A stretch of DNA of 64,000 bases from an uncultured Alphaproteobacteria bacterium (GTDB taxonomy: Bacteria > Pseudomonadota > Alphaproteobacteria > Rs-D84): positions 9,133 through 73,132 of the forward strand of contig CARVLU010000003.1 of the NCBI GenBank assembly GCA_949082785.1. Direction: 5' to 3'. Below, piece by piece: positions 4,369-49,840 of the stretch. The notes under the pieces were generated by a model. That model had not been told where the DNA came from and ran no database searches. It was given only the letters and a program-made list of their open reading frames with translations. Numbering within the stretch: the first letter of the stretch is position 1; each line of letters begins with the position of its first letter. The position numbers and the translations under genes are program-made.

Positions 4369-4392
4369 ACATGGCATATAACCGGTTTAACT

Positions 4393-4486
4393 ATGCCTAA
4401 TGCAAAGGGACGATTAAACCCAACTTTTTTGCATTTGAAAGAATCCCCATTTTTCAGCCTTTTGTTCCTAAAAATATGGTCATTTT
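4393..4486 (+). promoter_or_regulatory. type-2 conserved 5' leader with upstream small ORF (uORF) starting ATGCCTAAT (MPNAKGRLNPTFLHLKESPFF...)
   Basis: nucleotide and codon-level conservation with 27500-27584; first 20 codons align gap-free with conservative substitutions. Confidence 0.5.
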
Positions 4487-4999
4487 ATGCCGAATCTAAA
4501 CGTCGGATTGCTTTCGACAATGTGGGGGCAGAATGCGACGGCCGTGAGTGCCGCCGATCAGGCATGCGCCAACTGCTATTGCTGTACCAATGGGACACAG
4601 TTCGCCTGCAAGGGCACATGTTATTACGACGAAAGGTGCTGTATGGGTATGATATGCCCGGAGGGACAGATTTGGGATTCCGAACAAGGAAAATGTGTTG
4701 ACGAACCCGTCGTAAAATTCTGTATGAGTGGCACCTATCCCACAGCAACCAGCTGTAAACCATGCCCGGAAACCACAGATTTTTCATCCACAAACGCCAG
4801 ATGCAGTGCATCATCCCCAGGTGGAACCATAGGTGGCAGTGCTGGCGACACAAGTATTTCACTGGGCATAGAATCGTGTTACATGCCCAAGGAATACCTA
4901 TCCCTAGAAGGCGGCGGCACATGCGAATACACCGATGTTTCTGGAACATTTGAATTTACCCGGAACTGTAACTATTCCGCACGGATTGAACTGGAATAA
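4487..4999 (+). CDS. small cysteine-rich protein, paralogous family member (C-terminal C-P-C ... CY ... GTFEFT ... CNY module)
   Basis: 170-aa ORF, 20 Cys; C-terminal module shared with 13737, 22498, 27585, 48723, 49016 genes; followed by strong terminator. Confidence 0.75.
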   Translation: MPNLNVGLLSTMWGQNATAVSAADQACANCYCCTNGTQFACKGTCYYDERCCMGMICPEGQIWDSEQGKCVDEPVVKFCMSGTYPTATSCKPCPETTDFSSTNARCSASSPGGTIGGSAGDTSISLGIESCYMPKEYLSLEGGGTCEYTDVSGTFEFTRNCNYSARIELE

Positions 5000-12772: not shown

Positions 12773-12856
12773 ACCCAGCACAATAGCACACCAATTTAAA
12801 AAGTGAATTAAAATCTTGCAAATCGGCATCCCACGTATAAAATAAATCCCGAGAGA

Positions 12857-13429
12857 ATGGCCAAAACAACAAAGACGCAAAGACACATGGATATGAGCAA
12901 TACATTCTCGGACATGTGGTACGGGCAAAGCAAAACCACCATGGAAGACATCTTTCAAATGGTGCCCCAGCCACAGCTGAACAAATTATCCGATTATTTG
13001 ATTCAGCAAAACGGATTAAACTACCAAATTTCAATGTGCATGGAAGAAATTTCCGAATTGGCCACAGAATTGGTTCTGGACCGATCATTTGCAGACACCG
13101 CCAGCGAAATTGCCGACGTATACATCACATTGAACCACGTGACATACGGGTACGATATCCAACGCACCGTCAACAGCATTCGCCGCAAAAAGATTCGCGC
13201 CCCGCAATTTATGTCCGGCAATGACGAACGGTTAATCGCCCTGTTGGGATTACAAAAAGAATTACTGAAACACATGAACCGCCGGCGCGACAACATGCCG
13301 GCCGTTATTAACGCAACGGCGGACGCGTACGTTGCCCTGGGGCGGTTAATCATCGCCCACAATAACATGCCGTTGGTTCTGGACACCGTTTACCAAAAGA
13401 TTCAGCGCACATTCCAGCGTGAAAAATAA
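12857..13429 (+). CDS. MazG-like nucleotide pyrophosphohydrolase family protein (tentative)
   Basis: EEISELATE ... SEIADVYITL motif pair resembling MazG EExxE/ExxD metal-binding helices; divergent from era. Confidence 0.5.
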   Translation: MAKTTKTQRHMDMSNTFSDMWYGQSKTTMEDIFQMVPQPQLNKLSDYLIQQNGLNYQISMCMEEISELATELVLDRSFADTASEIADVYITLNHVTYGYDIQRTVNSIRRKKIRAPQFMSGNDERLIALLGLQKELLKHMNRRRDNMPAVINATADAYVALGRLIIAHNNMPLVLDTVYQKIQRTFQREK

Positions 13430-13432
13430 AAA

Positions 13433-13459
13433 CAAAATCCGACACCCGTCGGATTTTTT
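13433..13459 (+). terminator. rho-independent terminator
   Basis: AAAATCCGACACCCGTCGGATTTTTT. Confidence 0.8.
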
Positions 13460-13463
13460 ATCA

Positions 13464-13491
13464 TTGCAACATTAACAAAATTCAATATAAT
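13464..13491 (+). promoter_or_regulatory. sigma70-type promoter TTGCAA-16-TATAAT for leader A
   Basis: near-consensus hexamers with 16-nt spacer directly upstream of conserved leader. Confidence 0.5.
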
Positions 13492-13497
13492 AACAAT

Positions 13498-13705
13498 CGA
13501 ATTCATTAGATTGGATTCGGGACGTCGAAAATCCCTTATTAGTCCGGCAGAAATGTCGTTAAAACATTATGGCTTTTGCCATTTCCCCGACACCAGGTCG
13601 GGTTGTTGCGGTTATACAACAGGATTTATCCGAAAACCGCAAGGTCATTGACTAATATGATTTTTCGAACTTCCCGACCACCAATATTTTGGTGGTTTTT
13701 GTTTA
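13498..13705 (+). promoter_or_regulatory. type-1a structured leader RNA (copy A) ending in intrinsic terminator GACCACCAATATTTTGGTGGTTTTT
   Basis: ~85% identical blocks with 22271-22484; 5' segment CGGGACGTCGAAAATC can pair with GATTTTTCGAACTTCCCG adjoining the terminator; conserved internal hairpins. Confidence 0.6.
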
Positions 13706-13736
13706 ACAAAAAAACAAAAGAAGGAAATGAAAAATC

Positions 13737-14192
13737 ATGAAAAAGCTGACAACATGTATTGCACTGGCCGCGATTTGCAGCCCCGCGCTGGGTATCGTCA
13801 CCAATCCCGACCTGTTGGCATGTTTATGCGATGATGCACTGACACCATCGGTCCCCCAGGGTTCATATTGTCCGGACGGAACATACTGTCCATATAAATG
13901 TCCGGGCTGCACCAATATCAATTGGACATCATCATCAACCGGGTATGAATCACGCATAAGGGCCACATGCGATATTTATTCAGGCAACTGTAACAAAACC
14001 ACCGAATATCGTTGCGCAGCCGGATATTACGGCAATACGTTAAATGGCAATTCCGGATGTTCGGCATGCCCCAGGGGCGGCACGTCCCCCGCCGGCAGCA
14101 AGTCCATAACATCATGCTATCTGCCCAATGGGACATCTGGGACCGACAGCACCGGCAGTTATGTTTATACATCAGATTGCTATTACAATTAA
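13737..14192 (+). CDS. secreted cysteine-rich protein, family member (signal peptide MKKLTTCIALAAICSPALG)
   Basis: 151 aa, 18 Cys; YRCAAGYYGN...SGCSACP...SCYLP...GSYVYTSDCYY shared module. Confidence 0.8.
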   Translation: MKKLTTCIALAAICSPALGIVTNPDLLACLCDDALTPSVPQGSYCPDGTYCPYKCPGCTNINWTSSSTGYESRIRATCDIYSGNCNKTTEYRCAAGYYGNTLNGNSGCSACPRGGTSPAGSKSITSCYLPNGTSGTDSTGSYVYTSDCYYN

Positions 14193-14447
14193 TCTGATGC
14201 CGGACAAGGCAAGAAAAAACACATCACCAACAGATAAAATCCCCGGCGAACGCCGGGGTGTCCTGGATTACTTCCGGGTCCCGCCATCGGGTTATCCCCG
14301 GTCGAAATTTTGAATATTGGGACCTTTAGAATGCCAACATTTTTTCGACCGGCCCAAAATGCCAGGGCATTCGGGCAATGGCGGGTTGTCGTTTTTGATG
14401 GTATGGTCATCGCGGTTTTCGAGAGAGAAAATCGTCCCCATCAACAA

Positions 14448-14640
14448 CAAAACCACCTGTGGATAAAGGTGGTTGGAGATTAGCAATCTATTAACAGTAA
14501 ATAGTGTCGATATTCAATATATTCTCGACTCTCCAACCCTGGTTGGATTTTTCATCTTGAAGCAAGACGACTGTTAAGGAGTGGCTAAACTCCACGATGT
14601 GAAATCCACATCGCATTTTAATTATATATAAATATTTTCT
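14448..14640 (-). ncRNA. orphan copy E of type-1b leader element (possible sRNA or decayed gene leader)
   Basis: contains hairpin with conserved loop GAATATATTGAATA, CCAACC/GGTTGGAG/CTCCAACC alternative pairing and terminator CCACCTTTATCCACAGGTGGTTTT; no cys-rich CDS downstream. Confidence 0.45.
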
Positions 14641-14707
14641 TATTTTCCAGTAAATTATAAAAAAAGAAAGGGTTAATCCCCCTTCTTTTCTACTGGTTTT
14701 TCTACAA

Positions 14708-14905
14708 AACAAAACCACCAGAAAATTCAGGTGGTTGGAGATTAGCAACTATTAACAGTAATAGTGCGATATTCAATATATTTTCGACTCTCCAACCATG
14801 TTGGACTTTTACATCATGTCAAAAGACATAACGACTGTTAATAGGTTGCTAAACCCACATCGGCAACACGCCGACACGTAATATATTATATATGTTTTTT
14901 TTGCG
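14708..14905 (-). ncRNA. orphan copy F of type-1b leader element with own TATAAT promoter
   Basis: tandem duplicate of copy E (about 85% identity), conserved loop GAAAATATATTGAATA, terminator CCACCTGAATTTTCTGGTGGTTTT. Confidence 0.45.
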
Positions 14906-15057
14906 AATTCCAGGGATTTTTTATGGACGAATAAAGGCGATTGGGGTCTAAGAACTATCGTTCGATGAACATAGCACGATTTATTTGAATCAAAGATTCT
15001 TATTCATCGCACCCCAACCACATTTATTATACACATTTTTTCTGACAATTGTACGAA

Positions 15058-15545
15058 TTTTCTGGATTACCGGGCGCTTACTCTCCTTTGTCATTGCGAA
15101 CGAAGTGAAGCAATCCAGTCAAATAATGAACTATTCCTTGCTATTCCTGGATTGCCGCAGTCGTTTCACTCCCTCGCAATGACAGGGGTGTTTAATTGCT
15201 CAAAACCGGGCGCTTACTCTCCTTTGTCATTGCGAACGAAGTGAAGCAATCCAGTAAATAGTGAACTATTCCTTGCTATTCCTGGATTGCCACGCGGCGA
15301 CGTTCCGTCTTGCTCGCAATGACAGGGGTGTTTAATTGCTCAAAACCGGACACTTACTCTACTTTGTCATTGCGAACGAAGTGAAGCAATCCAGTGAATA
15401 TGAACCTTGCCGCTTTCCTGGATTGCCACGCGGCGACGTTCCGTCTTGCTCGCAATGACAATGGGGATGCAGCGCCTGGCTTTGTGTCTTGCCTGCTTCA
15501 TCACACTTGTTCATTGCGAGAGAAGCGACACAATCCAGTTAATAA
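15058..15545. repeat. three and a half tandem ~140-bp repeats, each containing an inverted pair TTGTCATTGCGAACGAAGTGAAGCAATCCAG / CTGGATTGCC...CGCAATGACA
   Basis: direct inspection; related units at 43738-43839 and 44336-44545. Confidence 0.85.
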
Positions 15546-15574
15546 AAGTGCCCGCCGAACGGCGGGACACAAAA

Positions 15575-15604
15575 CAAAAAATCCCGCCGGTTGGCGGGAT
15601 TTTT
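15575..15604. terminator. bidirectional rho-independent terminator
   Basis: AAAAAATCCCGCCGGTTGGCGGGATTTTT just downstream of rlpA stop. Confidence 0.85.
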
Positions 15605-15608
15605 CACA

Positions 15609-16493
15609 TTAAATGCTGTCGGCATTGACCCAGCGACCGTTCTTTAACAGACCCGGCGCCATGCCTTCGTTACTGCGCAGCGCGTCAATCACATTGCGGG
15701 CCTTGGCCGCGTCCAGGCCGACAATACGTACCTTGTACATATCCCCTTCCTTGACCACGGTGGCGTCGCCATATGTGCGCATTCTGGATGCCAGTGCGTC
15801 CGCACTGTCTTCGGCGTAAAATGCCGCCAACTGAACGCTGTATTCACTGCCCGATGTCGCATTCGCAGACGGGGCCGGTTCAACCGTTACCGGTGTGGTG
15901 GTTGTGACCGTTTCGGTGACAGAATAAGTTGTTGTCGCGCCCAATGTCGCGTTTTTCACCGCGATGGTCTGTTCCGGCAAAACCTGAACCTGAACCTTGG
16001 ACTGGCCGGTCATGCCGATTTTGCGGGCGGCCGCCGGGGACAAATCCATAATGCGGGTGTTAACAAACGGACCACGGTTGTTCACGCGAACAATCACAGA
16101 ACTGCCGTTATCTAAATTGGTGACACGGGCGATTGTCGGCAACGGCAAAGTCTTGCTGGTGGCGACCATCTGGTTGATGTCAAATGTTTCACCATTGCTG
16201 GTTTTCGAACCGTTCAATTCCGACGGGATAATGCCCGCGATGCCGGTTTGGTTGTATGTCAAATCTTCGACCGGGATGTATTGTACATCTTCGACCTTGT
16301 ACGCGCTGCCAATATAATACTTGGGCGCGGCGGCCAATAAATAAGTGTTGTTTAAAGTCTGGTCTTCGCCTGTGACCAAGACTTCTTCGCCAAAACCGTC
16401 CGAACCGTAATCCGAACCGGTATTCTGGCCCGACGGGTTTGTACATGCGGCGACCAATGCGGTCAAAACAGCCAATGAAACAATTTTCTTCAT
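15609..16493 (-). CDS. rlpA: septal ring lytic transglycosylase RlpA (DPBB domain + C-terminal SPOR domain), lipoprotein
   Basis: lipobox LVAAC; DPBB block GETFDINQMVATSK...VIVRVNNRGPF; SPOR-like C-terminus YSVQLAAF...DMYKVRIVGL. Confidence 0.85.
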   Translation of the reverse strand: MKKIVSLAVLTALVAACTNPSGQNTGSDYGSDGFGEEVLVTGEDQTLNNTYLLAAAPKYYIGSAYKVEDVQYIPVEDLTYNQTGIAGIIPSELNGSKTSNGETFDINQMVATSKTLPLPTIARVTNLDNGSSVIVRVNNRGPFVNTRIMDLSPAAARKIGMTGQSKVQVQVLPEQTIAVKNATLGATTTYSVTETVTTTTPVTVEPAPSANATSGSEYSVQLAAFYAEDSADALASRMRTYGDATVVKEGDMYKVRIVGLDAAKARNVIDALRSNEGMAPGLLKNGRWVNADSI

Positions 16494-19256: not shown

Positions 19257-20422
19257 AACGATATCTTTAAATTAACATGCCCGCTGTGGGATGTGTAATC
19301 CCGGCGCATATCCAATTGATATTCCAATCCAACCGAAAACATCGGCGCATACAGACGCAATCCCAATCCGCCCTGGAACGCCGCGCGGGCGGGCACTTCG
19401 ACCGGCACGTCATAGAATTGACCACTCAGCACGCACACCCGCACATCACTGTTACCATGACGCAGCGCATCGTATCCCCCGCCCAGCCGGATATTCGGAC
19501 GCAACCGATAATCAATGCCGGTAAATTCATATTCAACCATTACCCCCGCCATCGCCGTAATCGTGTTAAAGAACCATTTTTCAAACGCCTGGGCGGCGGC
19601 ATCAATATGCTTGTCCGTGCGGATATAGCTGTACCGCGCCCCAATATGCGGCGTCATCACCCAATGCCCGCGCGTCAGATGGATGCCCCCGCTGACCTGG
19701 CCGGCCATGTATTCGGTGTCATAATCGCCACTGTCAACGATGCCGGCAACAGTTTTGTCGTTGGCCCAGCGGGTCTTGCCGCCCGTTGCCGCCACATTTA
19801 AATACATGCCGTTGGCCGCATAATACTGCGCCGCCAACACCAACCCGTTGCTGACCGCGTCGGTATAAATCCGCCCGTGATGGGTGTCGGTCATACTGCG
19901 CGTATATCCAATCGACAGGGCAAATCCTTCGGTCAAAAAGGTGTTTGCACGAATACTGACCCCGGTGGTGTTTGTGCGAAAATCCCCATTTTTACGGGAA
20001 TCAAAATCATTTGTCCCACCAAATACCGTCCCGTCGATGGTGAATACCTGGCGCGTGGGGTCGCACTTTGAATTCGTCCATTGACATCCCGTGCGGCGCC
20101 GCCCCAGCGGCATGCCATACGCGTCCAGGGATGCCGCAATATGGCGGTCTGTTTCAAACAAAGTAATGGCCGTGTCGTTGTGCCCGATAATCGACACCAG
20201 GTCATAAAACGTCGCCAAATCGGAATTATGCGCATCGGTCATACGGGCCGCAATTGCCCCACCCGGCCCCAGATTTCCAAAGATACTGGCCCAGGCATCC
20301 GCCACACCCACCAAATAATCCGGCGCGCCACCGGACTGGGCCATTGCGTTCCCAAACGATGTCCGCGCCGCATGTGCGGTACCACAAAACAATAATACGA
20401 CAACAGGGAAAATATTTTTCAT
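19253..20422 (-). CDS. outer membrane beta-barrel protein, autotransporter beta-domain-like
   Basis: signal peptide MKNIFPVVVLLFCGTAHA, alternating beta-strand pattern, C-terminal ...NLKISF aromatic terminus. Confidence 0.65.
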   Translation of the reverse strand: MKNIFPVVVLLFCGTAHAARTSFGNAMAQSGGAPDYLVGVADAWASIFGNLGPGGAIAARMTDAHNSDLATFYDLVSIIGHNDTAITLFETDRHIAASLDAYGMPLGRRRTGCQWTNSKCDPTRQVFTIDGTVFGGTNDFDSRKNGDFRTNTTGVSIRANTFLTEGFALSIGYTRSMTDTHHGRIYTDAVSNGLVLAAQYYAANGMYLNVAATGGKTRWANDKTVAGIVDSGDYDTEYMAGQVSGGIHLTRGHWVMTPHIGARYSYIRTDKHIDAAAQAFEKWFFNTITAMAGVMVEYEFTGIDYRLRPNIRLGGGYDALRHGNSDVRVCVLSGQFYDVPVEVPARAAFQGGLGLRLYAPMFSVGLEYQLDMRRDYTSHSGHVNLKISF

Positions 20423-22078: not shown

Positions 22079-22155
22079 GCGCCCATAGCTTAACTGGATA
22101 AAGCATCTGACTACGGATCAGAAGACTGCGGGTTCGAATCCTTCTGGGCGCGCCA
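22079..22155 (+). tRNA. tRNA-Arg (anticodon ACG)
   Basis: acceptor GCGCCCA/TGGGCGC, anticodon loop CTACGGA, T-loop TTCGAAT, encoded CCA. Confidence 0.9.
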
Positions 22156-22235: not shown

Positions 22236-22264
22236 TTGCCTGGGTTTTAATAAACGACTATAAT
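22236..22264 (+). promoter_or_regulatory. sigma70-type promoter TTGCCT-17-TATAAT for leader B
   Basis: hexamers and spacing. Confidence 0.5.
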
Positions 22265-22270
22265 ACTTTT

Positions 22271-22484
22271 TGAATCCACGGTTGTGGGTTCGGGACTTCG
22301 AAAATCCCTTATCTGGTCGACATATTGTGTATGTCGTTATTTTGTGCGCGGCGCCTTGCCACGCCCCCCGACATTGGTCGGGTTGTTGCAGTTATACAAC
22401 AGGGGCATCGCCCCAAAGGCTGCAAGGTCATTATCAGATATGATTTTTCGAACTTCCCGACCACCAGATTCTGGTGGTTTTCTT
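22271..22484 (+). promoter_or_regulatory. type-1a structured leader RNA (copy B) ending in terminator GACCACCAGATTCTGGTGGTTTT
   Basis: homologous to 13498-13705 including GGGTTCGGGACTTCGAAAATCCC, GGTCGGGTTGTTGCAGTTATACAACAGG, GCAAGGTCATT, GATTTTTCGAACTTCCCGACCACC. Confidence 0.6.
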
Positions 22485-22497
22485 TGATAACCAAAGG

Positions 22498-23109
22498 ATG
22501 GAAGAAGTGAAGAAAATCAAACAAATAGGTAAAGTCTGGATAATGCTGACGCTGGTCATTATCCCCGGCGTGGCACGGGCGCTGTTGGTGCCACCGGTGG
22601 GCGAATGCGTGGGCGGCACATGCCCCAGCGATGGGCAATATATTGATGGCATCATGTACGGATGCGGGCGTGCAACGGAATGTTACTGCGTCAACAGTGA
22701 CGGCGAAGGAATCAATGTTCCCTGTGGATGCTTTGGCGACGCGGATTGCAAAACCAGCGGTTACGGATGTATTAACGGCCAATGCGCAAAATGCCGCAGT
22801 TGTACAAATTGTACCAGCAGCAACACCTGGGATTCTGTCGCCACCGGGTATCAACGCCGGACCACAAAAACATGTGGGTGTGACGGGACATGCAACACGT
22901 CATATTCTTACCGATGCGCACCCGGATATTTCGGCAACAGTTATAACGGCACATCGGGATGCACGCGTTGCCCGACCGACGGGGGCGTTACCGGGACATC
23001 TGTGGCGGGAACAACCGCACGAACGGGATGCTATGTCGGGGCAAACACGACGGGCCGCGATAATTCCGGGGCGTTTGAATTTACCGGAAATTCTTATTAT
23101 TGTGACTAA
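22498..23109 (+). CDS. secreted cysteine-rich protein, family member (signal peptide MEEVKKIKQIGKVWIMLTLVIIPGVARA)
   Basis: AAGGA SD 5 nt upstream; 28 Cys; CTNCTSSNTWDSVATGYQRR...YRCAPGYFGN...SGCTRCP...GAFEFTGNSYYCD shared module. Confidence 0.8.
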   Translation: MEEVKKIKQIGKVWIMLTLVIIPGVARALLVPPVGECVGGTCPSDGQYIDGIMYGCGRATECYCVNSDGEGINVPCGCFGDADCKTSGYGCINGQCAKCRSCTNCTSSNTWDSVATGYQRRTTKTCGCDGTCNTSYSYRCAPGYFGNSYNGTSGCTRCPTDGGVTGTSVAGTTARTGCYVGANTTGRDNSGAFEFTGNSYYCD

Positions 23110-27474: not shown

Positions 27475-27499
27475 TTGGGGCATCGGATGGGGTGAATAT

Positions 27500-27580
27500 A
27501 TGCCTAGTCCAAGGGAACGATTACAATCCCCATACGTGTTTTTGAAAAAATCCCCATTTTCTGCCCCCTGTTGTTTATGA
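27500..27580 (+). CDS. conserved upstream small ORF / leader peptide candidate (MPSPRERLQSPYVFLKKSPFSAPCCL)
   Basis: 26 codons; first 20 codons align gap-free with 4393-4452 uORF; TGA stop 4 nt before main ATG. Confidence 0.4.
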   Translation: MPSPRERLQSPYVFLKKSPFSAPCCL

Positions 27581-27584
27581 TTTT

Positions 27585-28061
27585 ATGCCGAATCCAATCG
27601 TTGGTTTTTGTGTCATGCAAATACCCCAAACAACGCGGTCGGCATGGGCCGCCAATAACTCATGCAGCACAACCATATGTACAAATTCCACCCAGTCCGG
27701 TGTGCCATATGGCCATAATTGCAGAACCAGCCAAACTGTCTGTGACGGGAACATAGGATATCGTTCATGCGTAACATGTGACCGTGCCGTATCCACCCCG
27801 GACCAGATGATAGGCGCCGAATTGTCCGGTTGCAGTGGGGTGTTCATGACATATTCAACATGCAAATGCTTAAAAGGCTATTATTCCAGTGCCGAAAAGT
27901 GTGTTCGATGCCCGGCGGATGCCGATGGCAATTATGGCACCACCGCGGCGGCAGGCGACACAACCCGACCAACAGACTGTTACCTGACGCGCGCCACAGA
28001 ATACCAGGATGACAGCGGGTCATATTCTTACACCCAAAACTGTTATTACAGCAACGGTTAG
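27585..28061 (+). CDS. cysteine-rich protein, family member (no classical signal peptide)
   Basis: 158 aa, 16 Cys; CKCLKGYYSSAEKCVRCP...DCYL...GSYSYTQNCYYSNG shared C-terminal module. Confidence 0.75.
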   Translation: MPNPIVGFCVMQIPQTTRSAWAANNSCSTTICTNSTQSGVPYGHNCRTSQTVCDGNIGYRSCVTCDRAVSTPDQMIGAELSGCSGVFMTYSTCKCLKGYYSSAEKCVRCPADADGNYGTTAAAGDTTRPTDCYLTRATEYQDDSGSYSYTQNCYYSNG

Positions 28062-43545: not shown

Positions 43546-43737
43546 AGATTCACCTTTGGGTAAGACTTATGTCCTAAAAATAATATTTGTCAACACGTTT
43601 GTCAAGGATTATTTGCCACAAAAATATATTTTTGTCAAATACGCATCCCGCCCCATCGATGTGTTATGACGCCCCAGGGCATGGCGCGGGGGATTTTTAT
43701 GGACCGGACAGCCCGCGCATCCGCGCAACATTATTGA

Positions 43738-43839
43738 CTGGATTGCTTCGCCGATGGCTCGCAATGACAAAGGAGATGCAGTGCCAGGCAATTCAACATC
43801 CTTGTCATTGCGAGCCACGACAGTGGCGCGGCAATCCAG
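43738..43839. repeat. palindromic repeat unit pair (CTGGATTGCTTCGCC...GCTCGCAATGACAA / TTGTCATTGCGAGC...GCAATCCAG)
   Basis: same family as 15058-15545 and 44336-44545. Confidence 0.8.
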
Positions 43840-43877
43840 TCAATAAACCAACACACCTGGCGTGATATAATTCTTGA

Positions 43878-44063
43878 ACATTCGCGCGGGATGCGATATA
43901 CTGGATTCGCATTGGGAAACCGGTGTAGGCTTAGAAACCTTTTCACATCGTCGGAATCGACGTAAAACTCCAACTGTTGGTTGGGGGGCTGCGAATATAT
44001 TGAATAAGCAGCGCTATCCATGTGAATAGTTTCTAACCTCCAACCGCCCACAATGTTGTCGGG
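43878..44063 (+). promoter_or_regulatory. type-1b leader copy G upstream of XRE-like regulator: TG-extended -10 promoter, hairpin with loop GAATATATTGAATA, terminator CCGCCCACAATGTTGTCGGGCGGTGTTTTTT
   Basis: shares conserved loop and CTCCAAC/GGTTGG/CCTCCAACC alternative-pairing logic with copies C-F. Confidence 0.5.
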
Positions 44064-44097
44064 CGGTGTTTTTTATAACGTAAAAGGAGTTTAAACT

Positions 44098-44325
44098 ATG
44101 TCAAAAATATTAATCGATGCCCAGTATTACGGCAATATCATGCGCTGTGCGCGACAACATTTGAAAATCAGTGCCGGTGACGCGGCGGCATTATTGAAAA
44201 TGACCAAGAAAGATTATCTGAAATGTGAACGTGGCCGCGATTTGTTCGCAGAAGGTACCCTGCGCCGCGTTTTCCATGGTGCGTTTGCGATGTTGATTAT
44301 CAAGCGTGGCCGCGTCGCGTGTTGA
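44098..44325 (+). CDS. small XRE/Cro-like HTH DNA-binding protein (tentative)
   Basis: AAAGGAG SD 7 nt upstream; ISAGDAAALLKMTKKDYLKCERGR resembles HTH_XRE. Confidence 0.55.
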   Translation: MSKILIDAQYYGNIMRCARQHLKISAGDAAALLKMTKKDYLKCERGRDLFAEGTLRRVFHGAFAMLIIKRGRVAC

Positions 44326-44335
44326 CGTGGCGCGT

Positions 44336-44545
44336 TGTCATTGCGAGCAAGTCGCGACGCAGCGTAGCGAAGACGGACGCCGCGTGGCAATCCAGGAAAG
44401 TGACAGCGCGCATTATTCACTGGATTGCTTCGCCGGTGGCTCGCAATGACAAAGAAGATAATGGGCCTGGCTGTTAAACACCCTTGTCATTGCGAGCAAG
44501 TCGCAACGTAGCGTAGCGAAGACGGACGCCGCGTGGCAATCCAGG
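44336..44545. repeat. three palindromic repeat units (TTGTCATTGCGAGCAAGTCGC...GCGTGGCAATCCAGG family)
   Basis: direct inspection. Confidence 0.8.
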
Positions 44546-44565
44546 AAATGACAATGGTGACGAAA

Positions 44566-48130: not shown

Positions 48131-48136
48131 ATTGAT

Positions 48137-48348
48137 GCCCGAACGTGTTGTTTGGGCGGGGCCTCATAACCTCTGATTTAGGCGTCGGAATTCATTCAAA
48201 TGGCGGGCCACGCGCACCCATTTTATGATGCAGACGAAAATAAAACTCCTGATTTTCCGGTCAGGAGGGTTGTGGAATATCAAATACGCAACGCAATTCC
48301 TAAAAATTGTTATGAGCCTCCTGACCACCAATTTGTTGGTGGTTTTTG
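48137..48348 (+). promoter_or_regulatory. type-1b structured leader RNA (copy C) with antiterminator/terminator alternative pairing and terminator CCTGACCACCAATTTGTTGGTGGTTTTT
   Basis: CTCCTGA/TCAGGAGG hairpin; GGTCAGGAGG can alternatively pair CCTCCTGACC overlapping terminator 5' arm; hairpin GTTGTGG-AATATCAAATAC-GCAAC. Confidence 0.6.
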
Positions 48349-48372
48349 CTTTGTACCACAGGAGGTTTTCAT

Positions 48373-48708
48373 ATGAAGCAACATTTAACAGTCGCCCTGG
48401 TGGCCATACCCATTTGGGCGGCGACATTACCCCACGGCATGGCCGCATGCCAAAGCATGATTCAATGCCGGCAATCCGCGGGCAACAATTGCAACTGTTG
48501 TCCGACCGGGACATCCGAAACACAATACACGTGCCCCGACGGATGGGATGCCCGCGGCAGCCAATGTTACCGGGACGCAACCCGTTCATCGGACAGCATC
48601 GGATACACCGAAACCACATACGGCACATGCGCCGGAACGGCGGGCGGCTTTGTCCAATGCTACAAAGCCCAATGCGGAAACCCGATTCCAAACTGCAAGC
48701 TTTTATAA
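48373..48708 (+). CDS. secreted cysteine-rich protein (N-module-type), family member
   Basis: GGAGG SD; signal peptide MKQHLTVALVAIPIWAATLPHGMAA; 14 Cys; ends 14 nt before next gene. Confidence 0.7.
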   Translation: MKQHLTVALVAIPIWAATLPHGMAACQSMIQCRQSAGNNCNCCPTGTSETQYTCPDGWDARGSQCYRDATRSSDSIGYTETTYGTCAGTAGGFVQCYKAQCGNPIPNCKLL

Positions 48709-48722
48709 CGGGGGTACTGGAA

Positions 48723-48998
48723 ATGAAGAAATTTGTATTCTGTGCCATCATGGCATGTATCAGCGGTGCGGCGTACGGGGCATGCACAACGGCCGGCACC
48801 ACATATTACGCGTGCAAGCCGGGGTATTATCTGTCGTCCGGAAATTGTGTCCGGTGCCCGTCATCCAGCGATGGATACGGCACAACAACGGACACCAACA
48901 CCGGCGGGCGCACATCATGCTATGTCCCGTCGGGCACCACCGGCAGCGATGGGTCGGGTTCATATACATACATGGCCAATTGCCATTATGTGGAATAA
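48723..48998 (+). CDS. secreted cysteine-rich protein (C-module-type), family member
   Basis: signal peptide MKKFVFCAIMACISGAAYG; YYACKPGYYLSSGNCVRCP...SCYVP...GSYTYMANCHY shared module. Confidence 0.7.
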   Translation: MKKFVFCAIMACISGAAYGACTTAGTTYYACKPGYYLSSGNCVRCPSSSDGYGTTTDTNTGGRTSCYVPSGTTGSDGSGSYTYMANCHYVE

Positions 48999-49604: not shown

Positions 49605-49800
49605 ACACTCCTTTTTTCTTCAACGAATGAAAAAGCCACCAAAATTCAGGTGGCAGGAGGTTCGAAACTATCTGTAAAAAATAGCAGTGTGCTTTCAATA
49701 TATAACACACTCCCCCTGCCCGCATAAAGACAGGGTCGCTTTACGTCCGCCGACGTTTACAGAAGGGTTTCGACGCCCCGACATCGGAATTCCCGATGCT
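49605..49800 (-). promoter_or_regulatory. type-1b leader RNA copy D (minus strand) with terminator GCCACCTGAATTTTGGTGGCTTTTT
   Basis: 5' CGGGAATTCCGATGTCGGGGCGTCGAAACCC resembles copies A/B; hairpin GTGTG-TTATATATTGAAAG-CACAC; AGTTTCGAACCTCCTGCCACC before terminator. Confidence 0.55.
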
Positions 49801-49840
49801 GCTGTAATTATGTCACAATTATAAAAAATTTACCACATTT

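What the first reader, a model, noticed from the sequence alone, without database searches (positions are those of the whole stretch)
14193..15608. A 1.4-kb non-coding stretch with two tandem orphan leader copies and tandem palindromic repeats
Between the cysteine-rich gene ending at 14192 and rlpA there is no credible CDS.

The region instead holds two tandem leader copies at 14448-14640 and 14708-14905. Each has its own TATAAT promoter and terminator, with no gene behind them. Three and a half 140-bp tandem repeats lie at 15058-15545.

The orphan leaders could be stand-alone sRNA genes derived from the leader family, or relics left after deletion of cysteine-rich genes. The ORF-track entries here (MLISNHL... 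at 14292-14486 and 14491-14748, and the 73-aa ORF at 14189-14410) are artefacts of the repeat sequence or convergent overlap.
Basis: partly seen in the sequence, partly recalled or inferred. Interest (0 to 1): 0.55.

Follow-up and report, generated by a model that had tools for sequence, protein, structure and literature searches.

The report
Tandem gene-less copies of a switchable leader RNA
The gap next to rlpA holds two complete copies and one truncated copy of a ~180-nt structured RNA that normally sits in front of accessory genes in this gut bacterium and its phages; here the copies have no protein gene behind them and most likely act as small regulatory RNA genes.

Summary
Window 14193-15608 has no credible CDS. 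It carries two full RNA units on the minus strand (A 14439-14617, B 14701-14880), each with its own TATAAT promoter and intrinsic terminator, and a 136-bp palindromic tandem array (15069-15460).

The window comes from a gut alphaproteobacterium, 'Candidatus Enterousia'. A covariance model built only from 16 gene-linked leaders finds B (105.7 bits) and A (83.1 bits) at full length, so both are genuine family members.

The family has two mutually exclusive folds, and both covary:
- a four-way junction that leaves the terminator free;
- an sRNA-Xcc1-like domain whose closing stem uses up the terminator's 5' strand.

Gene-less copies in tandem recur in the sister species, in another Enterousia species and in a metagenome contig. 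Nine such copies are only 46-71% identical, yet 91% of model pairs are kept. No remnant of a cysteine-rich or HTH gene is detectable. Stand-alone sRNA genes are therefore favoured over deletion relics.

- a third, 5'-truncated copy (14922-15035);
- a 140-nt structured block with its own terminator behind copy A;
- phage relatives that sit upstream of Rha/Bro antirepressor genes.

Transcription and any trans action remain untested.

The parts
14701..14880 (-). Copy B. A complete leader-type RNA unit with no ORF behind it. Elements: P0 hairpin 14859-14875; P1a 5' strand 14845-14852; P1b 5' strand 14834-14843; seg1 14800-14806; seg2 14788-14797; P4 loop 14769-14784; P1b and P1a 3' strands 14742-14759; seg3 14733-14741; terminator 14705-14736.
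   Evidence: R2, built without the orphan copies, scores it 105.7 bits, E 2e-31, full length. 31 of 34 model pairs are kept. Coordinates.
14877..14907 (-). Promoter of copy B. The -10 TATAAT lies at 14885-14890, with a TTCGCA -35-like hexamer upstream.
   Evidence: The -10 is in the same register as in 31 of 32 family members.
14660..14691 (-). Second hairpin plus T-run between copy B and the promoter of copy A.
   Evidence: 13-pair stem followed by TTTTTT.
14439..14617 (-). Copy A. A complete leader-type RNA unit with no protein gene behind it. Elements: P0 14596-14612; P1a 5' strand 14581-14588; P1b 5' strand 14570-14578; seg1 14541-14548; seg2 14529-14538; P4 loop 14510-14526; P1b and P1a 3' strands 14480-14498; seg3 14471-14479; terminator 14442-14474.
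   Evidence: R2 scores it 83.1 bits, E 2e-24, full length. 29 of 34 pairs are kept. Coordinates.
14621..14649 (-). Promoter of copy A: TGGAAA, 17-nt spacer, TATAAT.
   Evidence: 10 of 12 consensus positions.
14922..15035 (-). Copy C, 5'-truncated. It keeps seg2 (15011-15019), an extended P4, the CUAU/AUAG hairpin (14955-14974) and seg3 (14939-14948), which together form the Xcc1-like domain. A TGTGTATAAT motif (15026-15035) lies just upstream. The 5' domain is replaced by the palindromic array and the terminator is lost.
   Evidence: R1 scores it 21.6 bits, E 0.002; R2 does not find it. Alignment to copy B and to L004a. Coordinates.
14261..14402 (-). 140-nt structured block downstream of the copy A terminator. 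It is predicted to fold as a four-way junction. It could be the cargo reached by read-through from copy A.
   Evidence: It differs at 3 positions from L004:14180-14320 (98% identity), whereas four-fold sites in murJ are 87% identical. MFE -54.3 kcal/mol, z -4.1. No homologue elsewhere. No match in Rfam.
14241..14258 (-). Intrinsic terminator that closes the minus-strand unit (CCCCGGCGTTCGCCGGGG followed by ATTTTAT).
   Evidence: L004 has a different hairpin plus T-run at the same place and in the same orientation.
15058..15545 (.). Tandem array of palindromic units of 136-140 bp. The arms are TGTCATTGCGA...GCAATCCAG and its inverse.
   Evidence: TRF: 15069-15460, period 136, 2.9 copies. Repeat families D1 and D10. 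Hairpin folds with z -5.7 and -6.9. The same unit occurs in the window only at 43759-44495.
15551..15607 (-). Two terminator hairpins after rlpA. They separate rlpA from the array.

Best explanation
Copies A and B are complete, separately promoted and separately terminated genes for a ~180-nt bistable RNA. In 'Ca. Enterousia' and its phages this RNA normally sits as a promoter-proximal leader 10-30 nt upstream of the ribosome-binding site of accessory genes.

The RNA has two exclusive folds.
- Fold I is a four-way junction (P0, GGG:CUC, P1a/P1b, P2, P3 = seg1:seg2, P4). It leaves seg3 free, so the intrinsic terminator forms. This is the predicted default and yields a short RNA.
- Fold II pairs seg2 with seg3. 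This closes an sRNA-Xcc1-like domain (P4 plus the CUAU/AUAG hairpin) and removes the 5' strand of the terminator, allowing read-through into the cargo.

Gene-less units in tandem make only the short isoform. By analogy with IsrK, P4 CI and P1 c4, they most likely act in trans on cognate read-through transcripts. Candidate targets are copy A's own extension into the 140-nt block, or the leader at 43906 that shares the same seg class.

Shown here: family membership, promoters, terminators, covariation for both folds, recurrence and structural conservation of gene-less arrays, and absence of coding remnants.
Inferred: transcription, the default state, what triggers the switch, and trans action.
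For: Membership without circularity. R2 was built from 16 gene-linked leaders only and still matches B (105.7 bits) and A (83.1 bits) end to end.

Fold I. 94.5% of cells are paired, 26 of 34 pairs change on both sides, and the covariation score is 0.59 against at most 0.10 for slid controls.

Fold II. It was counted on an alignment that had not been fitted to it. 95.2% of cells are paired, 6 of 13 pairs change on both sides, and the score is 0.232 against at most 0.081 for slid controls. seg2:seg3 averages -18.6 kcal/mol for cognate pairs and -14.0 for non-cognate pairs. CUAU/AUAG switches to CAAU/AUUG in 6 of 21 sequences.

Strand specificity. G-U pairs are frequent (for example GU in 18 of 21 sequences at columns 40-240), so the structure is RNA on this strand.

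Default state. 26 of 32 copies have an MFE in Fold I for the nascent RNA and 28 of 32 form the terminator stem in the full-length MFE.

Promoters. A -10 hexamer at a fixed distance occurs in 31 of 32 copies.

Leader position. An SD and start codon lie 10-30 nt after the terminator in front of Cys-rich secreted proteins, lipoproteins, HTH proteins, a DksA/TraR zinc-finger protein, a GT6 glycosyltransferase, and Rha and Bro-N proteins.

Recurrent gene-less tandem copies.
- The sister species L004 keeps both copies in synteny.
- L059 has three copies in tandem, the last followed by an HTH gene.
- Metagenome contig L092 has four in tandem, each preceded by its own promoter-like -10 and ending in its own terminator, the last followed by an 84-aa ORF.
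- Nine gene-less copies are 46-71% identical, yet 91.2% of pairs are kept and 19 of 34 pairs change on both sides.

Divergence. B versus L004b and A versus L004a are 60-73% identical, below the 87% seen at four-fold sites of murJ, yet all four copies remain intact.

Precedents. Xylella carries five tandem sRNA-Xcc1 copies (PMC12189769). Short IsrK acts in trans on its own read-through transcript, and P4 CI has complementary sequences on both sides (PMC4825925).
Against: - There are no expression data.
- Alignments A4 and A8 were fitted to Fold I, which inflates its pair counts.
- P3 (seg1:seg2) is weak in A, B and L004b (-7.1 to -7.4 kcal/mol) and -10.3 in L004a, against -10.9 to -17.5 in gene-linked copies. 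This could signal relaxed constraint.
- Copy C shows that units do decay at this locus.
- The low identity between positional orthologues may reflect replacement or gene conversion rather than selection.
- No cognate complementarity was found between leaders and their own translation-initiation regions, so no c4-type downstream target was identified.
- The high identity of the 140-nt block may come from a recent recombination tract, because the neighbouring orf190 is also 98.6% identical.
Confidence: 0.55

Rival explanations
1. Decaying relics. The copies are leftovers of leader-gene cassettes whose genes were lost by the frequent insertions and deletions at this hot spot, and they have no present function.
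For: - The rlpA-era gap is only 50-600 bp in most relatives and is a recurrent insertion site.
- The cassette of the 13496 leader plus Cys gene is present in the window but absent in L004.
- Copy C is truncated.
- P3 is weak in A and B.
Against: - Promoter, all helices and terminator are intact in A, B, L004a and L004b, even though their divergence exceeds that of four-fold sites.
- Spacers between units contain only the next promoter, which fits duplication of a promoter-RNA-terminator unit rather than loss of a gene.
- There is no tblastn trace of Cys-rich or HTH genes (best E 0.046 over many comparisons).
- The same layout occurs in the independent arrays L059 and L092.
Confidence: 0.2
2. 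Cis-only compound leader. The array is a chain of attenuators and promoters that together tune expression of whatever follows the last unit: the 140-nt block here, an HTH gene in L059, an 84-aa ORF in L092. The short RNAs themselves have no trans role.
For: - In L059 and L092 the last unit carries a gene.
- Here copy A is followed, with no intervening promoter-like site, by a structured block that ends in its own terminator.
- All units point the same way.
Against: - Each unit has its own promoter and usually a strong terminator; copy B has two. Upstream units would therefore contribute little read-through.
- The block has no detectable homologues or coding capacity, so it is not established as cargo.
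Confidence: 0.17
3. DNA-level element. The conserved units and the neighbouring palindromes act as recombination or insertion sites for cassette shuffling, as attC sites do, and the RNA folds are incidental.
For: - Canonical sRNA-Xcc1 lies in integron cassettes (bioRxiv 10.1101/2025.06.18.660453).
- In the window, the palindromic units occur only beside family copies.
- Cassette-like insertions and deletions occur at the locus.
Against: - The pairing is strand-specific, with many G-U pairs.
- Promoter and terminator are position-conserved and oriented with the fold.
- No integrase or attC-type core sites were noticed on reading the region, though no dedicated search was run.
- The fold logic (terminator against antiterminator) only makes sense in RNA.
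Confidence: 0.05

Closest known systems
sRNA-Xcc1 (Rfam RF02221)
   Same: - Fold II has the same architecture: a 9-bp closing stem enclosing two hairpins, followed by ACC.
- There is local sequence likeness (UUCUUAAC-CUCCNNCC-ACC).
- Sub-threshold hits fall on three family members in the window: 13596-13687 (41.2 bits) and 49644-49720 (30.8 bits).
- A true Xcc1 (72.6 bits) sits 37 nt upstream of a BRO-family gene on a Pseudomonas plasmid, which is a leader position like ours.
- Xylella carries five tandem copies.
   Different: - No window copy reaches the gathering score of 53 bits. Copies A and B get no Xcc1 hit even at E <= 10.
- Our model R2 does not detect the true Xcc1.
- The Enterousia RNA is twice as long. 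It has a 5' domain that unzips the Xcc1-like domain and an overlapping intrinsic terminator.
Prophage leader RNAs of the c4 / P4 CI / IsrK type
   Same: - The RNA is embedded in a leader with its own promoter and terminator.
- A core segment has complementary partners both upstream and downstream (seg1 and seg3 against seg2).
- There are alternative structures, and both short and read-through isoforms are expected.
- Relatives on viral contigs precede Rha and Bro-N antirepressor-type genes.
- The IsrK and CI mechanisms are taken from PMC4825925. The c4-ant link is taken from PMC7313666.
   Different: - There is no significant match to RF01695, RF01394 or RF03163.
- Regulation here appears to work through an intrinsic terminator, not through translation or Rho.
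- Cargo genes are mostly non-phage accessory genes.
- No downstream antisense target was found.
Classical transcription attenuators and riboswitch expression platforms (terminator / antiterminator / anti-antiterminator)
   Same: It has a four-segment logic: seg1:seg2 plus the terminator, against seg2:seg3. A large conserved sensor-like domain lies upstream.
   Different: - No leader peptide, ligand or binding protein has been identified.
- The controlled genes are functionally unrelated.
- Gene-less copies exist.
REP/MITE-like palindromic repeats (applies to the 136-bp units)
   Same: They are imperfect palindromes of about 105-110 nt that fold as long hairpins. They are intergenic, dispersed and sometimes tandem.
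   Different: - No named family was found; a full-text search for the core motif returned only unrelated primers.
- Target-site duplications and a transposase partner were not examined.

Membership tests
Enterousia leader RNA family (defined here by model R2) | Full-length match to a model built only from gene-linked leaders | tested here: met
   B 105.7 bits and A 83.1 bits, model positions 1-182.
Enterousia leader RNA family (defined here by model R2) | Sigma-70 -10 hexamer at a fixed distance upstream of P0 | tested here: met
   TATAAT is in register for A and B; 31 of 32 members have a TAnnnT there.
Enterousia leader RNA family (defined here by model R2) | SD and start codon of a protein gene 10-30 nt after the terminator | tested here: not met
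   B is followed by a second terminator and the promoter of A. A is followed by a block with no SD, no conserved start and no protein homologue.
sRNA-Xcc1 (RF02221) | Score at or above Rfam's gathering threshold (53 bits) | tested here: not met
   A and B get no hit at E <= 10. Related leaders score 41.2 and 30.8 bits.
sRNA-Xcc1 (RF02221) | Closing stem enclosing two hairpins, followed by an ACC tail | tested here: met
   The Fold II helices covary.
c4 / CI / IsrK-type leader RNAs (Rfam clan CL00128 and relatives) | Sequence and structure match to the Rfam models | tested here: not met
   The only hit is an insignificant 11.3-bit match to c4-a1b1 (E 5.9).
c4 / CI / IsrK-type leader RNAs (Rfam clan CL00128 and relatives) | Core segment with complementary partners both upstream and downstream | tested here: met
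   seg1 and seg3 both pair with seg2, and both pairings covary.
c4 / CI / IsrK-type leader RNAs (Rfam clan CL00128 and relatives) | Short RNA acts in trans on the read-through transcript | not testable with these tools
   This needs expression and genetic experiments.
Intrinsic-terminator attenuator | Terminator hairpin plus U-run between promoter and cargo | tested here: met
   The terminator helix covaries at 6 of 7 pairs.
Intrinsic-terminator attenuator | Mutually exclusive antiterminator that overlaps the terminator's 5' strand | tested here: met
   seg3 ends inside the terminator stem (AACC of AACCACC). seg2:seg3 is -16 to -17 kcal/mol in A and B.
Intrinsic-terminator attenuator | Read-through is regulated by a signal | not testable with these tools
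   No ligand, protein or leader peptide was identified.
REP/MITE-like repeats (136-bp units) | Imperfect palindrome present in several intergenic places | tested here: met
REP/MITE-like repeats (136-bp units) | Terminal inverted repeats with target-site duplication | not tested
   The boundaries were not analysed.

The most novel reading that the evidence does not exclude
The family is a new, self-contained expression front-end for shuffled accessory and phage genes in reduced-genome gut Alphaproteobacteria. It would be a bistable RNA whose variable pairing segments (seg1/seg2/seg3 and P1b) define specificity groups. Gene-less tandem arrays would be dedicated trans regulators, comparable to phage immunity RNAs, that set the on/off state of every cassette in their group, including the many secreted cysteine-rich proteins. 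A leader that controls a non-coding cargo (the 140-nt block) would be part of this system.
Probability: 0.2. Interest if true: 0.75.

Novelty: new variant of a known kind. Interest (0 to 1): 0.6.

Why it matters
'Ca. Enterousia' is an uncultured, reduced-genome gut lineage found in humans and livestock, and nothing is known about how it regulates its genes.

This window shows one RNA design placed in front of at least five accessory genes within 64 kb. The design also occurs on phage-predicted contigs upstream of antirepressor-type genes.

If the two covarying folds do switch termination, this is a candidate for a new attenuator or riboregulator class. It would link sRNA-Xcc1, whose function is poorly understood, to the c4/CI/IsrK logic of prophage control.

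The gene-less arrays offer a direct test of whether short leader RNAs act in trans.

Tried and rejected
- Rfam at gathering scores found only tRNAs. At relaxed E-values it gave only sub-threshold Xcc1 hits on other leaders and none on A or B.
- Pfam on the cysteine-rich proteins and on every ORF in the region found nothing.
- A search of 5.8 billion protein clusters with the 73-aa ORF found no candidate.
- tblastn of five HTH and six Cys-rich proteins against 14189-15610 gave only noise.
- Homologues of the 140-nt block were sought with blastn against relatives (only L004), against phages and plasmids (no match), and with covariance model R3 over 1.6 Mb (only the window and L004).
- Its 98% identity cannot be read as selection, because the adjacent orf190 is also 98.6% identical.
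- A test for c4-like targets compared each leader with its own translation-initiation region. Cognate pairs averaged -21.6 kcal/mol and non-cognate pairs -20.4, which is no signal.
- A BLAST with the Xcc1 consensus found one true Xcc1, but model R2 does not recognise it.
- The metagenome scan for two P4 loops about 250 nt apart returned 21 contigs, of which only L092 carries the family.
- A literature search for the palindrome core returned only primer coincidences.
- An apparent P1a-like complement upstream of the Pseudomonas Xcc1 was considered and dropped as possibly coincidental.
Full report
**Source and setting.** The exact RlpA protein of the window occurs in MAG GCA_949093815.1 and in many gut metagenome assemblies. 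Eighty related loci fetched through MurJ are alphaproteobacterial gut MAGs, many of them named 'Candidatus Enterousia'.

On the window's minus strand the order is as follows:
- rlpA (15609-16493);
- two terminator hairpins (15551-15607);
- a palindromic tandem array (15058-15545);
- RNA copies C, B and A;
- a 140-nt structured block;
- a terminator (14241-14258).

The plus-strand cysteine-rich gene (13737-14192) converges on this unit.

**Observation.**
- Copies A and B are about 80% alike over the best-aligned stretches (D6) and share a 31-mer that occurs nowhere else in the window.
- Each has a TATAAT -10 and an intrinsic terminator.
- TRF finds the repeat array at 15069-15460 with period 136.
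- No ORF in the region has a Pfam match.
- The 73-aa ORF has no homologue in the large protein collection.
- The 'MLISNHL' ORFs are translations of the repeated seg3/terminator sequence.

**Are the copies members of the leader family?** Plain alignment with the two leaders that precede cysteine-rich genes (13486-13736 and 22259-22506) showed little beyond a shared terminator. Comparison with relatives resolved the question.

BLAST found A/B-like sequences in L004, L007, L012, L065 and L069. Model R1, built from nine sequences, then found five further copies in the window:
- 43906-44080;
- 48134-48356;
- 49622-49803;
- 13496-13709 (weaker);
- 22269-22491 (weaker).

It also found 23 copies in the relatives.

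To avoid circularity I built R2 from 16 leaders that are each followed by a gene, leaving out all gene-less copies.
- R2 matches B at 105.7 bits and A at 83.1 bits over the whole model.
- It matches the two cysteine-gene leaders at 43 and 40 bits.
- A and B are therefore full-length members.
- Their nearest relatives are the 'AACC' class, which usually precedes small HTH genes (window 43906, L007, L012, L010b).

**What the family looks like.** In 31 of 32 copies a -10 hexamer lies at a fixed distance upstream of the first hairpin. In gene-linked copies an SD and start codon follow the terminator by 10-30 nt.

The cargo is diverse: Cys-rich secreted proteins, lipoproteins, weak HTH proteins, a DksA/TraR zinc-finger protein and a family-6 glycosyltransferase.

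Members also occur on IMG/VR viral contigs.
- L086 (39.9 bits) directly precedes a Phage_pRha protein (Pfam 2e-30).
- L090 (21.4 bits) precedes a Bro-N protein.

**Two folds.** Fold I consists of a 5' hairpin P0, a GGG:CUC helix, long-range helices P1a and P1b, a variable hairpin P2, P3 (seg1:seg2), and P4 with the conserved loop GAAUAUAUUGAAUAA. The terminator forms alongside it.
- On 21 sequences, 94.5% of cells pair and 26 of 34 pairs change on both sides.
- The covariation score is 0.59, against at most 0.10 when partners are slid.
- That alignment was fitted to this fold, which favours it.

Fold II pairs seg2 with seg3 instead.
- seg3 covaries with seg2 exactly as seg1 does. The classes are CUCCAACC, CUCCUGAC, CCUGCC, AUCCAG and CCCGACC.
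- Cognate duplexes average -18.6 kcal/mol and non-cognate duplexes -14.0.
- Inside this stem lie P4 and a CUAU/AUAG hairpin, which becomes CAAU/AUUG in 6 of 21 sequences.
- Counted on the same alignment, which was not fitted to Fold II, 95.2% of cells pair and 6 of 13 pairs change on both sides.
- The score is 0.232, against at most 0.081 for slid controls.

seg3 runs into the terminator's 5' strand, so Fold II acts as an antiterminator and the 5' domain as an anti-antiterminator. MFE prediction puts 26 of 32 nascent RNAs in Fold I, and 28 of 32 form the terminator stem in the full-length MFE. Frequent G-U pairs show that the structure belongs to the transcribed strand.

**Relation to known RNAs.** Fold II has the architecture of Rfam sRNA-Xcc1. 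That model gives sub-threshold hits to other window leaders (41.2 and 30.8 bits against a gathering score of 53), but none to A or B even at E <= 10.

A genuine Xcc1 (72.6 bits) on a Pseudomonas plasmid lies 37 nt upstream of a BRO-family gene. R2 does not detect it. The relationship is therefore architectural and at best distantly homologous, not membership.

The literature gives three relevant precedents.
- Xylella carries five tandem Xcc1 copies spaced 381 bp apart (PMC12189769).
- Xcc1 lies upstream of symE in integron cassettes.
- In APSE phages, c4 and IsrK RNAs are present and the c4 a'/b' regions match the region upstream of the adjacent BRO-family gene; some APSE also carry an Xcc1 upstream of an ORF6N-domain protein (PMC7313666).

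The IsrK study shows a short terminated RNA acting in trans on its own read-through transcript through alternative structures. It also notes that P4 CI has complementary sequences on both sides (PMC4825925). This closely parallels the seg1/seg2/seg3 layout.

**Orphans: genes or relics?** In most relatives rlpA is followed almost directly by era, so this locus is an insertion hot spot. Family copies lie within about 1.5 kb of rlpA in L004, L026, L059, L062 and L065.

The sister species L004 (MurJ 97% identical) keeps both gene-less copies in the same positions and lacks the cysteine-rich cassette.
- Positional orthologues are only 60-73% identical, while four-fold degenerate sites of murJ are 87% identical.
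- All four copies nevertheless keep 29-32 of 34 model pairs.
- P1a, P1b and seg2:seg3 differ by compensating changes.

Independent arrays exist elsewhere.
- L059 has three units, the last with an 89-aa HTH gene.
- Metagenome contig L092 has four units at 154-1008, each preceded by its own promoter-like -10 and ending in its own terminator. The last is followed by an 84-aa ORF.

Across nine gene-less copies from the four arrays, identity is 46-71%, 91.2% of pairs are kept and 19 of 34 pairs change on both sides. Spacers hold only the next promoter, and no coding remnant is detectable. These data favour maintained RNA genes that arose by duplication of a promoter-RNA-terminator unit.

Decay does occur, however. 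Copy C (14922-15035) has lost its 5' domain to the palindromic array and has lost its terminator, although its Xcc1-like domain is intact. It most resembles L004a. P3 is also weak in A and B.

**Behind copy A.** A stretch of 140 nt (14261-14402) differs from L004 at only three positions, all predicted to be unpaired or at helix ends.
- It folds as a four-way junction (z -4.1).
- It is followed in both species by a terminator of different sequence in the same orientation.
- No promoter-like site separates it from copy A, so it may be reached by read-through.
- It has no homologue in 1.6 Mb of relatives, in phages, in plasmids or in Rfam.
- There is no evidence that it codes for protein.
- Because the adjacent orf190 is 98.6% identical, its high identity may reflect recent recombination. 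Its status stays open.

**Palindromic array.** The units fold as long hairpins. In the window the core motif occurs only here and on both sides of the leader-HTH cassette at 43906. It is also present in L004, L005 and L016. It behaves like a REP/MITE-type repeat, and I found no named family.

**Verdict.** The most likely reading (about 0.55) is that A and B are sRNA genes of a new, bistable leader-RNA family that is Xcc1-like in one fold. They would produce the short isoform, with a probable trans role modelled on IsrK, CI and c4. The rival readings are decaying relics (0.2), a cis-only compound leader (0.17) and a DNA-level element (0.05). Transcription, the trigger of the switch and the targets remain untested.

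Noticed in passing
window 14261-14402 (minus strand), terminator 14241-14258: A 140-nt block predicted to fold as a four-way junction (z -4.1). It is 98% identical to L004 and has no homologue elsewhere, no Rfam match and no coding support. It may be a new small RNA, or cargo reached by read-through from copy A.
   Followed up: partly
window 4392-4453 and 27499-27560 (partial match at 19949-19992): A second, unrelated conserved 5' leader that ends in GAAAAATCCCCATTTT, with a TATAAT upstream. It precedes two other cysteine-rich genes whose products begin MPN (4487-4999 and 27585-28061).
   Followed up: no
window ~13458-14240 versus L004:14320-14367: The promoter, the 13496 leader and the cysteine-rich gene form a clean cassette that is present in the window and absent in the sister species. 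It lies between the orf190 terminator and the terminator of the 140-nt block.
   Followed up: partly
window 43729-44560: The leader at 43906-44080 and a 75-aa HTH-like gene (44098-44325) are bracketed on both sides by the same palindromic units as in the 15058-15545 array.
   Followed up: partly
window 22079-22152 and 22259-23109: A tRNA gene lies about 100 nt upstream of another cassette of leader plus cysteine-rich gene. This placement is typical of inserted DNA.
   Followed up: no
L086:4575-5629 and L090:5463-6884 (IMG/VR contigs): Distant family members lie directly upstream of a Phage_pRha gene and a Bro-N gene on phage-predicted contigs. L087 and L089 carry a strong member (140.7 bits) next to genes whose products looked P2-like by eye (not tested against any profile).
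   Followed up: partly
L112:2498-3127 (P. aeruginosa plasmid NZ_CP093017.1): A bona fide sRNA-Xcc1 (72.6 bits) lies 37 nt upstream of a BRO-family protein gene, beside a mer/Tn3 module. Canonical Xcc1 can therefore also occupy a leader position.
   Followed up: yes
L007:18020-18290 and L012:18400-18650: A different palindromic repeat (TTGTCATTCCTGCGCAGGCAGGAATAGGGAC) follows the leader-HTH cassette in two relatives.
   Followed up: no
window 48373-48997: One leader (48134-48356) is followed by two consecutive small cysteine-rich ORFs, apparently forming an operon.
   Followed up: no
window 12800-13430 versus L004:14363-14993: orf190 (no Pfam match) and the start of era are 98.6% identical between the two species, while the surrounding regions are 88-95% identical. 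This suggests a recent recombination tract.
   Followed up: partly
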